A model generated the notes under the pieces. That model was given only the letters and a program-made list of their open reading frames with translations. It did not search any database and had not been told where the DNA came from. Of a stretch of 64,000 nt of DNA, positions 60,157-63,159 are shown in pieces. Made by a program: the position numbers and the translations under genes. Position 1 is the stretch's first letter, and every line of letters starts with the position of its first letter. This DNA is from the human T2T-CHM13v2.0 reference genome, Homo sapiens, in NCBI RefSeq assembly GCF_009914755.1, contig NC_060936.1. One strand, written 5' to 3'.

Positions 60157-60605
60157 TTCATTCATTTATTCAGTCATTCAACATTTTTATTGAACCACTA
60201 CTCAACGTAACAGTGAATGAACACAGGAACTCCCTGTTCCCGTGGAGGAGAAAGACAATAAATGAAGAACCAAATAAATAAATGAGAGCTGGTGGTAATG
60301 CATTCTGTAAAGAACAATAAAGCCAAGGAAAGGAATAGAGGGTGAGGGAATGAGCTGCTTTGTTGGACAGCATGATCCCTGAGTGAAGGGAGAGGTGAGC
60401 TGTGAGGATAAGTGAGAGAAAAGTGTTTGAGGCAGAGGGAACAGCAAGTGCAAAGGCCCTGAGGTAGAAGGATGCTTGGTGTATTTGAGAAATAGCAAGG
60501 AGGTCAGTGTGGCTAGAGCAGAGTGAGTGAATGGGAGAGTGACAGAAGATGATTCCCAGGATGCAAGCAGAAAACAGATCAAGTGGGGCCTTGTAAGCCA
60601 GTTCA
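60157..60605 (-). mobile_element. L2 3' fragment
   Basis: ttcattcatttattcagtcattcaac tail; ggcagagggaacagcaagtgcaaaggccctgagg. Confidence 0.85.
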
Positions 60606-61125
60606 GGAAATTCCTAGGTCCTGGGCTGGGGGCAGGAGGTGGTCCCAGGAGGGTTCTTGCCTTCTCAAGCAGAGTTCCAGATCTGATCTGCTTCTGTTGA
60701 CTCCTCTTTCCTGACTCTGATGCAGCCAGTGATGACTTTGAACAGCAATATCAGAAGATTGGCTGGGTCCCTCCATGTGTTATGGACAAGCATGAAATTT
60801 ACAGTCCCTTTGATTGTGAACAATCACATCAGGAAACTTTAAAGATGCTGTTTAGACTTCCAAATAGCAGTGATAGATTTTGTTCCCACAGTGCAAGGGT
60901 TTGGTCTCTCATATTCATGCATGCAAACCTAGACTATCCCTTGCACCCAGTAGCCCCCTCCACTGCACACTCTTGAAGCTACAGTCTGCTCTTTCTGTCT
61001 CTCTCCCTCTGTGTATCTCTCCCGGCACCTGTCCCCCCACACCTTCCAGCCCCCCACTCCATTTGAAATTTTGCTGAGGGAGCTCCCATATGCTACAGCC
61101 TCTGTGCGGAGCTCTGTGAAATAGA

Positions 61126-61959
61126 ACACTGAATTAAGATGTCATAGAGACAAAGCCAAACCAAATACAGGAACAATGCCGAACCCTAAAACAGTCATTA
61201 AGTAATTCATGTCTACGTGTGTCTGTTCAAAACAAATATTAAGATCCTCTGGACGCAAATCTTTCTCATCCGGAGAATCCTCTGGTTGCTGGATTCCCAA
61301 AGCTTAGATGCCGCTGTCGGACAGCTTTGCTGAGTACAAATACCAACAGATCACTGTTCTCTGGCTTCGTTAAAAGTTAAGCTTAGGCAACTGAGCAGGA
61401 ATTTAGAAGACAGTTGCCACTTCTGCAGAAAGAGAGGTGCCATTTGGGCCTGAAGCGTGCATCTTCATGGTGTGTGTGCACGCTCACTTGTGGTGGGAAT
61501 GTGTGTGCTAAGAGCCTTGTGTTACTATGTGCCTTGCCCTGTGCTGAACACATTTCATCTCTTATCCAGTTCTGTACTTATAATAATTCCAGAAGAGAGG
61601 TGTCTTCAAGACCCTATTTTACAGATGAGAAAACAGAGGCTCTGAGAATAGAAATGATCTGCTCACAGACACATGGCTGGTAAGAGTCAGAATTGGAATG
61701 AGAACCCAGAGCTCTTAACCAACATGTTTATAGGATAAGACACTTTGCAGAGGAGGAAAAAATGGTATCACAGAGGGGAGGTAAGCCCTGGGAATCCAGC
61801 AACCAGGGGAGTCTCTAGATGAGAAACCTTTGCGTCCGGAGGTTCTTACTATTTGTTTTGAACAGACACACGTAGATGTGAATTGCTTAATGACTGTTTC
61901 AGGGTTCGGCATTGTCCTATTTGGTTCGGCTTTGTCTCTATGTCATCTTAATTCAGTGT
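61126..61959. repeat. Inverted repeat, arms 61126..61306 and 61782..61959, 475-bp spacer
   Basis: Manual alignment: 17 substitutions plus 3 gapped nt over ~181 bp (~89%). Not Alu-derived. Confidence 0.95.
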
Positions 61960-62020
61960 GCCCATGATCACACGGTGTGTAAGTGATGAAAGCAGGAGAT
62001 GAATTCAGGTCTGTCTGATT
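61745..62020 (-). mobile_element. MIR core interrupted by the right arm of the intronic inverted repeat
   Basis: ttgcagaggaggaaaaaatggtatcacagaggggagg | [insert] | gcccatgatcacacggtgtgtaagtgatgaaagcaggagatgaattcaggtctgtctga follows MIR consensus order. Confidence 0.65.
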
Positions 62021-62304
62021 GCTAGTATATTCTTCTCTCCTGGCTGGACTTCCTGTCATTCTGGTTTGGGTTTTAAGGTTGGGGGTGTTTTTGTTTTGTT
62101 TTGCTCATCTTGTTTTATGTTCAATCAGTTTAGTAACTGCCATTGTTATAATCCCATCTCATACCACTTGCAGCAATACTGCTTTCCTCTTTCCTTGCCC
62201 CTCTTATCCATTATCCACATAGACCCAGAAGAACCTCTTTGAAAAGCACATCAGACCATGTAAGCCCTCTCTCCCTCCATCTAAAGCCCTCTATCACTTT
62301 CTCT

Positions 62305-62602
62305 TGTTTGTGTTTTTTTGGTTTGTTTTTGTTTTGAGATGGAGTCTCGCTCTGTCACCCAGGCTGGAGTGCAGTGGTGCGAACTCAGCTCACTGCAACC
62401 TCTGCCTCCCAGGCTCAAGGAATTCTCCTGCCTAAGCCTCCCAAGTACCCACCCCGCACCCAGCTAATTTTTGTATTTTTTTAGTAGAGACAGGGTTTCA
62501 CCATTTTGGCCAGGCTGGTCTTGAACTCCTGACCTCAGGTGATCCACCCTCCTCGGCCTTCCAAAGTACTGGGATTACAGGTGTGAGCCACCATGCCTGG
62601 AC
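62305..62602 (-). mobile_element. AluS with small internal deletion, inserted in an L2
   Basis: gagatggagtctcgctctgtcacccagg; ~20 bp missing at ccaagta|cccaccc. Confidence 0.95.
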
Positions 62603-63159
62603 CCATGTTTTTTTAAGTATACAGAGCCAGCTCCCTGCCATGGCCTCTAGCCTCTTCATGGTCCACTTCCTGCCCACCTCCCTGAGACCATTTCTAAAAC
62701 ACCACCTCTCACTTCCTCTGTTTAGTTGCATCTTATTCCTTTTAGTTACTCACATTTTCCAGGCTCCTTCCTGCCATGGAGCCTTTGCACATGCTGCTAG
62801 GAAAGCTCTTCCTCTCCCCTGGTGCCTGATTTATACCTACTCCACTTTCCAGAGCTCAGAGGAAATGCTGTTTCCTCGGGGATCCTTCCAGAATGCTGCA
62901 GACTAAGTCATACCCCTCATTACAGACATTACTTTCTTATCACTGTTTTCAACACATTTGTAATTATATATGGATTTGGGCGATCATTGGCTAAAGCATA
63001 CCTCTCCTAACGGTTGAGGCCTCATGAGGAGAGGGACTGTGACTATGAGCTCCTTGTTGAACGAATCTCTTCCCCCAGATACGCAGCAGGGACCAAACAC
63101 ATGTTGGTAGAATGCATGAACTGTAGCACTTTCCCCTCATCGAATCACTTTCACACCTA

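What the first reader, a model, noticed from the sequence alone, without database searches (positions are those of the whole stretch)
61126..61959. Long non-Alu inverted repeat in SRRM4 intron 1: predicted ~180-bp pre-mRNA dsRNA stem
Seen: 61126..61306 is the reverse complement of 61782..61959 (17 substitutions, 3 gapped nt, ~89%), with a 475-bp spacer, and I do not recognise the arm as a known repeat. On the sense strand, 6 differences become G:U wobbles and 5 become A:C mismatches. The central helix is ~50 bp uninterrupted if G:U is allowed (27 bp perfect). Established: long imperfect intronic duplexes are ADAR substrates, A:C mismatches are favoured editing sites, and ADAR activity is high in neurons, where SRRM4 is expressed. 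Inference: this could be an unannotated editing or small-RNA hairpin, or a structure affecting processing of the very long first intron of a master splicing regulator. Caveat: the 6:5 split of wobble versus A:C shows no strand bias, so sequence alone does not show selection for pairing.
Basis: partly seen in the sequence, partly recalled or inferred. Interest (0 to 1): 0.8.

Follow-up and report, generated by a model that had tools for sequence, protein, structure and literature searches.

The report
Locally duplicated inverted repeat in SRRM4 intron
A real 180-base inverted repeat in the first intron of SRRM4 looks like a leftover of an old DNA copying error that pasted a reversed copy of nearby sequence into an ancient SINE; it can fold into a long RNA hairpin, but nothing shows that the hairpin is used.

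Summary
61126-61306 is the reverse complement of 61782-61959: 17 substitutions, 3 gapped nt, 475-nt spacer, BLAST E 1.4e-53. The RNA fold gives z -21.9.

The arms are not a dispersed repeat. In the 3.1-Gb assembly each arm finds only itself and its partner, while the same search recovers 73-94% identical copies of neighbouring old repeats.

A profile of 41 copies of a MIR-like SINE core shows that the right arm interrupts such an element. Profile positions 45-95 start exactly at the arm's outer end. Removing about 172 nt (61785-61956) in silico restores one ungapped alignment to positions 1-95: 23.8 bits against 11.7, reached by 3 of 150 random and 2 of 200 shuffled controls.

Best reading: a local templated inverted duplication, a template-switch type event, copied the left arm into a SINE. 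It happened long after the SINEs arrived, probably in anthropoid primates.

Nothing indicates selection for pairing: 6 G:U against 5 A:C, both strands fold equally well, and the 27-bp perfect run is what chance gives.

The hairpin is a plausible ADAR substrate, but editing and function could not be tested here. It is a new member of a known kind, of low to moderate interest.

The parts
61126..61306 (.). Left arm, the inferred source (template) of the duplication
   Evidence: Reverse complement of 61782-61959, 88.4% over 181 columns. Only two places in the genome. Removing it in silico joins nothing recognisable: 1.9 bits against the SINE-core profile and no hit against the second old-repeat profile.
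61307..61781 (.). 475-nt spacer, the loop of the RNA hairpin. Inferred to be ancestral sequence lying between source and target
   Evidence: Unique in the genome except 61606-61713, which matches 18 other loci at 74-94%.
61533..61717 (+). Old SINE copy 1 inside the spacer (MIR-like; the name is recalled, not from a tool)
   Evidence: First profile: E 1e-25. Core profile positions 2-95 at 61616-61709, 55.1 bits. 71 of 94 columns identical to the profile consensus.
61741..61784 (+). Inferred 5' half (core profile positions 1-44) of old SINE copy 2, cut off by the right arm
   Evidence: Alone it gives only 1.2 bits (61741-61759, E 1.7). Joined in silico to 61957 onward it completes an ungapped alignment to positions 1-95 at 23.8 bits.
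61782..61959 (.). Right arm. The inferred inserted reversed copy is about 61785-61956 (172 nt). The few bases at each end are shared between copy and target (TAAG at the inner junction, AGTGT at the outer one)
   Evidence: for the repeat. for the best excision points (left piece ending 61784, right piece starting 61957; the same 172-nt excision slid by 1-2 nt scores 21.7-22.5 bits).
61957..62024 (+). 3' half of old SINE copy 2, starting at core profile position 45 exactly at the outer end of the right arm
   Evidence: 61957-62024, E 2e-4 with the first profile. 61958-62008 matches positions 45-95, 11.7 bits, E 8.9e-4, with the clean 41-copy profile. 0 of the 41 copies used for the profile start beyond position 28.

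Best explanation
The inverted repeat is the relic of one local mutational event, not a transposon and not a pair of dispersed repeats. A stretch of about 172 nt lying about 480 nt upstream (the left arm) was copied in reverse-complement orientation and inserted into an old MIR-like SINE, producing the right arm. The likely route is a replication template switch (type '3-2-1-4' of the four-point model) or a templated break repair, with 4-5 nt of shared sequence at each junction.

Shown:
- The repeat is real.
- It is unique in the genome.
- It has sharp ends.
- A SINE fragment begins at the right arm's outer end.
- The SINE alignment is restored when the right arm is removed.

Inferred:
- The direction of copying (left to right).
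- The mechanism.
- The age. A K2P distance of 0.103 between the arms is about 5% per arm. With recalled primate substitution rates that gives roughly 30-60 million years, which is anthropoid primates.

Since the event both arms have drifted neutrally. Because the locus lies in SRRM4 intron 1, about 7.6-8.4 kb downstream of exon 1, the pre-mRNA can fold into a ~180-bp imperfect duplex with a 475-nt loop. The expected by-product is nuclear A-to-I editing where SRRM4 is transcribed. The likeliest sites are the five adenosines facing cytosine: 61158, 61188, 61300, 61301 and 61817. The last sits in a U-A-G context. I expect no selected function.
For: 1. The repeat is real and far beyond chance: E 1.4e-53, fold z -21.85.

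2. It is not a dispersed repeat. Left and right arm each find 2 of 2 candidate places in the 3.1-Gb assembly, itself and the partner at 88%. Positive controls of the same search: the spacer's SINE core finds 18 other loci at 74-94%, and 60378-60578 gives 650 candidates, 40 of them scored, at 73-84%.

3. The right arm interrupts a SINE. A profile built from 41 copies, none from 60900-62100, matches 61958-62008 at positions 45-95 (11.7 bits, E 8.9e-4). Removing 61785-61956 in silico gives one ungapped alignment to positions 1-95 at 23.8 bits.

4. Controls on the same 26 x 18 grid. 150 random window places as the left piece: mean 17.5, sd 3.3, and 3 of 150 reach 23.8. 200 shuffles of the real left piece: mean 16.75, sd 1.86, and 2 of 200 reach 23.8. 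Removing the whole unit gives 19.0 bits, which is inside the control range. Removing the left arm gives 1.9 bits.

5. The event is much younger than the SINEs. The arms differ at 9.6% of aligned sites. SINE copy 1 is 75.5% identical to its consensus and copy 2 is 63.5% identical.

6. Neutral drift. Transitions to transversions 11:6; G:U to A:C 6:5. Sense fold -419.7 against antisense -404.1 kcal/mol. Duplex -276.2 against -271.8. The longest perfect run, 27, is as expected from random placement.

7. The mechanism and its frequency are in print. The four-point model and the '3-2-1-4' type that creates an inverted repeat are in PMC5453318 (passages). PMC10710096 reports 53,666 putative template-switch mutations in genic regions on the primate-to-human lineage, 31,007 of them forming new RNA stems (passages).
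Against: - The SINE-restoration test is only moderately strong: about 1-2% of controls reach the observed score. The left SINE half is purine-rich, scores 1.2 bits alone, and the joined alignment carries an nhmmer bias term of 8.0.
- The statement that 0 of 41 copies start beyond position 28 is biased, because the first half of the core is the part that makes copies detectable.
- No outgroup genome was available, so the ancestral state, the direction of copying and the age are all inferred.
- The template-switch events described in print are mostly tens of bases. A 172-nt fragment copied across about 480 nt is long for that class.
- Gene conversion between the arms would make the repeat older than its divergence suggests.
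- The genome search uses a word-based first look and would miss family members below about 70% identity.
- Absence of selection is argued from small numbers (6 against 5).
Confidence: 0.6

Rival explanations
1. A selected, functional RNA hairpin, whatever its origin. The duplex would be kept because it is edited by ADAR, yields small RNAs, or shapes processing of the long first intron of SRRM4 in neurons.
For: - Very stable predicted structure on the transcribed strand.
- Its dimensions (178-181 bp, 27 contiguous pairs or 50 with G:U, 167 of 181 paired, 475-nt loop) resemble the medians reported for edited non-repetitive human dsRNAs: 144 bp, 30 contiguous pairs, 87.5% paired, 509-nt loop (PMC11838218, Table 1 text).
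- Some template-switch hairpins did become miRNA genes (PMC10710096, abstract and passages).
Against: - No strand asymmetry: 6 G:U against 5 A:C; antisense fold -404.1 against sense -419.7 kcal/mol.
- Six transversions break pairs.
- The run lengths are as expected by chance.
- No Rfam family matches at E up to 1 inside the repeat.
- In PMC11838218, over 99% of predicted dsRNAs have low conservation, and only 4,597 of about 497,000 non-repetitive ones are edited on both arms.
- None of the 6 papers holding 'SRRM4' and 'inverted repeat' (listing only; passages of one checked) appears from title or abstract to concern this locus. The same holds for the 10 holding 'SRRM4', 'A-to-I' and 'intron' (listing only).
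Confidence: 0.08
2. The 834-nt unit is one non-autonomous DNA transposon with ~180-nt terminal inverted repeats, inserted as a whole.
For: It has the terminal-inverted-repeat architecture with sharp outer ends. By eye, the left flank weakly resembles the SINE sequence that should precede the right flank's fragment. Whole-unit excision gives a 19.0-bit alignment to profile positions 25-95.
Against: - 19.0 bits lies inside the random-control range (mean 17.5, sd 3.3) and below the 23.8 bits for right-arm excision.
- No target-site duplication of 3 nt or more at any end positions within about +/-5 nt of the repeat ends (11 x 11 end positions tested; only 2-nt matches).
- No other copy of either arm in the genome, although elements of that apparent age should have siblings about 90% identical.
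- The spacer carries a SINE copy far more diverged (75.5% to its consensus) than the arms are from each other. It would therefore have had to travel inside the element.
Confidence: 0.07
3. A local inverted duplication as in the best explanation, but either made in the opposite direction (the left arm is the copy) or much older, with the arms kept similar by gene conversion.
For: - Without an outgroup the direction rests on one test with about 1-2% control exceedance.
- Close inverted repeats are known to undergo conversion (established knowledge, recalled).
- Both arms lost CpGs independently, which fits any of these histories.
Against: - The SINE fragment starts at the right arm's outer end and is restored by removing the right arm.
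- Removing the left arm restores nothing.
- The differences are spread evenly, and no identical tract is longer than chance predicts, so there is no sign of a recent conversion tract.
Confidence: 0.2

Closest known systems
Template-switch mutations that create hairpins (four-point model, type 3-2-1-4; PMC5453318, PMC8794818, PMC10710096)
   Same: A reverse-complement copy of nearby sequence is inserted in one event and creates an inverted repeat and an RNA stem. Such events are often intronic, arise in the primate lineage, and need no pre-existing repeat (passages; PMC8794818 was seen only as a search listing and abstract start).
   Different: The copied fragment (about 172 nt) and the jump (about 480 nt) are much larger than the tens of bases typical of the events described. 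The ancestral state was not reconstructed here.
Microhomology-mediated replication-based rearrangement (FoSTeS/MMBIR) and templated insertions at repaired breaks (names and properties recalled)
   Same: Short shared sequence at both junctions (TAAG and AGTGT, read directly from the sequence). Inverted orientation. A local template.
   Different: Those classes are mostly described at kilobase-to-megabase scale (FoSTeS/MMBIR) or for inserts under about 30 nt (polymerase-theta repair). This event lies between them in size.
Non-repetitive intronic dsRNAs of the human dsRNAome (dsRNAscan; PMC11838218)
   Same: A long intramolecular duplex formed by non-repeat arms in an intron. Its length, pairing and loop size are near the medians of the edited non-repetitive class.
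   Different: I could not check whether this locus is in that catalogue or is edited. Only one small supplementary file is held, and it has no SRRM4 entry.
Inverted Alu pairs, the main ADAR substrates in human introns (recalled)
   Same: An imperfect duplex of a few hundred base pairs within one intron.
   Different: The arms here are single-copy sequence. The nearest Alu-like element lies outside the repeat, at about 62301-62625 (and the hub's mask list).

Membership tests
Local templated inverted duplication / template-switch mutation | One segment is the reverse complement of a nearby segment on the same molecule | tested here: met
   88.4% over 181 columns, 475 nt apart.
Local templated inverted duplication / template-switch mutation | The copy is an insertion relative to the ancestral sequence | tested here: inconclusive
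   There was no outgroup. As a proxy, removing 61785-61956 restores an ungapped alignment to SINE-core positions 1-95: 23.8 bits against 11.7. 3 of 150 random controls and 2 of 200 shuffled controls reach that score.
Local templated inverted duplication / template-switch mutation | Short shared sequence (microhomology) at the switch points | tested here: inconclusive
   TAAG and AGTGT are shared by template and inferred target. A 4-nt direct repeat, GCCC, is an alternative parse, but about one such match is expected by chance on the grid used.
DNA transposon with terminal inverted repeats | Target-site duplication flanking the unit | tested here: not met
   Only 2-nt matches across 11 x 11 end positions.
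DNA transposon with terminal inverted repeats | Other copies of the family in the genome | tested here: not met
   2 of 2 candidate places are the arms themselves. The same search finds 73-94% identical copies of neighbouring old repeats. Members below about 70% identity could be missed.
Pair of dispersed repeats in opposite orientation (such as inverted Alus) | Each arm belongs to a multi-copy family | tested here: not met
Known structured RNA family (miRNA, snoRNA and so on; Rfam 15) | Match to a covariance model | tested here: not met
   No match at E up to 1 within 61126-61959. The three matches in 60500-62700 lie elsewhere and are below their gathering scores.
ADAR-edited non-repetitive intronic dsRNA | Long, largely paired intramolecular duplex in a transcribed intron | tested here: met
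   167 of 181 paired, -276.2 kcal/mol. The stem is present in both the MFE and the centroid structures. The intronic position comes from the hub's gene table.
ADAR-edited non-repetitive intronic dsRNA | A-to-I editing sites on both arms | not testable with these tools
   No RNA-seq or editing database is available. The supplements of PMC11838218 that are held do not list the locus.

The most novel reading that the evidence does not exclude
A primate-specific, unusually long (about 172 nt) template-switch event created, in a single step, a 180-bp hairpin in the first intron of the neuronal microexon regulator SRRM4. That hairpin has since been co-opted: for example as a heavily edited nuclear dsRNA that tunes SRRM4 pre-mRNA processing or retention in neurons, or as a source of small RNAs.
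Probability: 0.05. Interest if true: 0.6.

Novelty: new member of a known kind. Interest (0 to 1): 0.25.

Why it matters
If the origin is as inferred, this is a clean and unusually large example of how a single replication or repair error creates a long RNA hairpin from unique sequence inside a gene. It sits between the short template-switch mutations and the kilobase-scale rearrangements already described.

It also gives concrete, cheap predictions. Outgroups should carry an empty site with an intact SINE. Five named adenosines should be the preferred editing sites.

For SRRM4 biology it probably does not matter. The hairpin lies deep in a very long intron and shows no sign of selection.

Tried and rejected
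1. Direct local alignment of the left and right flanks against the spacer's SINE copy. Scores were 9.0-13.5 and none exceeded the best shuffle. The test was uninformative, so I built profiles instead.

2. The first profile, from 9 copies with wide flanks, and its iteration were contaminated by Alu sequence from the flanks of the fetched loci. The 97 hits were mostly Alu. One search was discarded, and only the two SINE matches are used. The clean core profile replaced it.

3. The left flank alone against the first profile gave no hit.

4. The idea that the whole unit sits inside one SINE gave 19.0 bits, not above controls.

5. A larger, decayed palindrome was suggested by a weak outer inverted match, 60442-60607 against 62634-62796 (62.5%, E 1e-6). 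This was rejected. Both sides are copies of another old high-copy repeat in opposite orientation, and nothing between them and the arms matches.

6. Open reading frames: only two, of 56 and 65 aa, on the minus strand across 61000-62100. Nothing suggests coding.

8. Site-level evidence of editing was sought in the supplements of PMC11838218. One small file is held, with no SRRM4 entry. The large tables of that preprint and of PMC10710096 were not seen and may list this locus.

Full report
**1.

The repeat finder reports two adjoining arm pairs: 61173-61306/61782-61915 (134 nt, 89%) and 61126-61167/61918-61959 (42 nt, 95%). A BLAST of 60300-62900 against itself joins them into one match, 61126-61306 against 61959-61782, 88.4% over 181 columns, E 1.4e-53.

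Counting column by column gives:
- 17 substitutions (11 transitions, 6 transversions, 4 at CpG) and 3 gapped bases;
- on the sense strand, 6 G:U, 5 A:C and 6 other mismatches;
- a longest perfect run of 27, and a longest run allowing G:U of 50.

Folded as RNA, 61100-61990 gives -419.7 kcal/mol against -249.9 +/- 7.8 for shuffles (z -21.85). The long stem is present in both the minimum-energy and the centroid structures. The two arms alone form a duplex of -276.2 kcal/mol with 167 of 181 left-arm bases paired.

**2. The arms are not a dispersed repeat**

The window's own assembly (3.1 Gb) was searched with each arm. Both searches returned 2 candidates, the arm itself and its partner at 88%.

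The same tool recovers old, diverged repeats, so the blank is meaningful down to roughly 75% identity:
- The spacer query found 18 other loci matching 61606-61713 at 74-94%.
- The left flank query found 650 candidates, 40 of them scored, matching 60378-60578 at 73-84%.

Rfam has no match at E up to 1 inside the repeat. The immediate flanks (60900-61125 and 61960-62300) and the rest of the spacer are single-copy by the same search.

No repeat library was available, so family names below are recalled, not tool results.

**3. What surrounds the arms**

The multi-copy stretch in the spacer is the conserved core of an old SINE, which I recall as MIR. I built a profile of that core from 41 copies taken from the rest of the window and from fetched loci. 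None came from 60900-62100.

Scanning 60900-62100 with it gave three matches:
- A clear copy in the spacer: 61616-61709, profile positions 2-95, 55.1 bits.
- A second, partial copy that begins at the outer end of the right arm: 61958-62008, positions 45-95, 11.7 bits, E 8.9e-4.
- A non-significant match to positions 1-19 at 61741-61759, just inside the right arm's inner end (1.2 bits, E 1.7).

None of the 41 profile copies starts beyond position 28. That count is biased, because the first half of the core is what makes copies detectable.

**4. Excision tests**

In a script I removed the right arm over a grid of 26 x 18 end points and rescored.
- The best result, left piece ending 61784 joined to right piece starting 61957 (172 nt removed), is one ungapped alignment to profile positions 1-95 at 23.8 bits.
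- Without excision the two pieces score 11.7 and 1.2 bits separately.
- The same 172-nt excision slid by one or two bases scores 21.7-22.5 bits.

Controls on the same grid:
- 150 random window places substituted for the left piece gave mean 17.5, sd 3.3, and 3 of 150 reached 23.8. Two of those three scored 34.0 and 46.7 and are probably real SINE copies.
- 200 shuffles of the real left piece gave mean 16.75, sd 1.86, and 2 of 200 reached 23.8.

So the support is real but moderate, at roughly the 1-2% level. The left piece is purine-rich, like the SINE core.

Two other excisions were tried:
- Removing the whole 834-nt unit gives 19.0 bits, within the control range.
- Removing the left arm gives 1.9 bits against this profile and no hit against a second repeat profile.

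**5. Junctions**

The few bases at each end of the right arm are shared by the template and the inferred target: TAAG at the inner junction and AGTGT at the outer one (read). An alternative parse has a 4-nt direct repeat, GCCC (61785-61788 and 61960-63), but about one such match is expected by chance on the grid scanned. For the whole unit there is no direct repeat of 3 nt or more at any of 11 x 11 end positions.

**6. Relative age**

The arms differ at 9.6% of aligned sites (K2P 0.103). The SINE copy in the spacer is 75.5% identical to its profile consensus (71 of 94), and the split copy is 63.5% identical (61 of 96). The duplication is therefore much younger than the SINEs within and around it.

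This is natural if the spacer is ancestral sequence lying between a source and a target. It is awkward for a transposon, which would have had to carry an older SINE.

With recalled primate substitution rates, about 5% per arm points to roughly 30-60 million years. This is inference. Gene conversion between the arms would make the true age greater, but the differences are evenly spread and no identical tract exceeds chance.

**7. No sign of selection for pairing**

- Transitions to transversions are 11:6, and G:U to A:C is 6:5.
- The antisense strand folds almost as well: -404.1 kcal/mol, z -18.61. The antisense duplex is -271.8 kcal/mol.
- Twenty differences placed at random among 181 columns give a longest perfect run of 29.3 on average. 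58% of trials reach 27 or more, so the 'central helix' is not special.

**8. Most likely mechanism**

One local templated event copied about 172 nt of the opposite strand from about 480 nt upstream and returned to the original template at, or within a few bases of, the point of departure. This is the '3-2-1-4' configuration of the four-point template-switch model, which creates an inverted repeat without inverting the spacer (PMC5453318, passages).

Such events are common on the primate lineage. PMC10710096 reports 53,666 putative events in genic regions, of which 31,007 formed new RNA stems, and some became miRNA genes (abstract and passages). The present fragment is much longer than the tens of bases usual there. 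It sits between that class and the kilobase-scale replication-based rearrangements (recalled).

**9. Consequence for RNA**

The hairpin lies in SRRM4 intron 1 (hub gene table), 7.6-8.4 kb past exon 1. Its dimensions are close to the medians of the 4,597 edited non-repetitive dsRNAs in the dsRNAscan survey: 144 bp, 30 contiguous pairs, 87.5% paired, 509-nt loop. In the same survey, about 493,000 non-repetitive predictions are unedited and over 99% of all predictions are poorly conserved (PMC11838218, passages and table text).

Editing is therefore plausible but unproven. From recalled ADAR preferences, the five adenosines facing cytosine (61158, 61188, 61300, 61301, 61817) are the best candidates. 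The best of them is 61817, in a U-A-G context.

I found nothing in print about this locus:
- 6 papers hold 'SRRM4' and 'inverted repeat' (listing; passages of one checked).
- 10 papers hold 'SRRM4', 'A-to-I' and 'intron' (listing only).

The large supplementary tables of PMC11838218 and PMC10710096 were not available and may include the locus.

**10. Verdict**

This is a real, single-copy, long inverted repeat. It is best explained as a neutral relic of a local templated inverted duplication into an old SINE. It is a new member of a known kind. A functional role is not excluded, but nothing measured here supports one.

Noticed in passing
window 60375-60606 (+), 62748-62813 (-), and weakly 60675-60728 (-): These are copies of another old high-copy repeat: 650 candidate places in the genome, and I recall it as a LINE-2 3' end. 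The first two, in opposite orientation, explain a weak outer inverted match (60442-60607 against 62634-62796, 62.5%) that at first looked like a larger palindrome around the finding.
   Followed up: yes
window about 62301-62625 (-): An Alu-like element just downstream of the repeat. It gives a sub-threshold SRP RNA match at 62485-62601 (50.9 bits, gathering score 70) and a sub-threshold mir-3135 match at 62356-62415 (40.8 bits, gathering score 80). The stretch is masked in the hub's list.
   Followed up: partly
window 61533-61717 and 61741-61784 plus 61957-62024: Two copies of the same old SINE lie head to tail in the same orientation, the second starting only a few bases after the first ends. 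The second is 5'-truncated at the start of the core.
   Followed up: partly
window 61383-61553 (-) and 61715-61912 (-): Two short ATG-started open frames of 56 and 65 aa on the minus strand, one of them running through the right arm. Nothing suggests they are genes.
   Followed up: no
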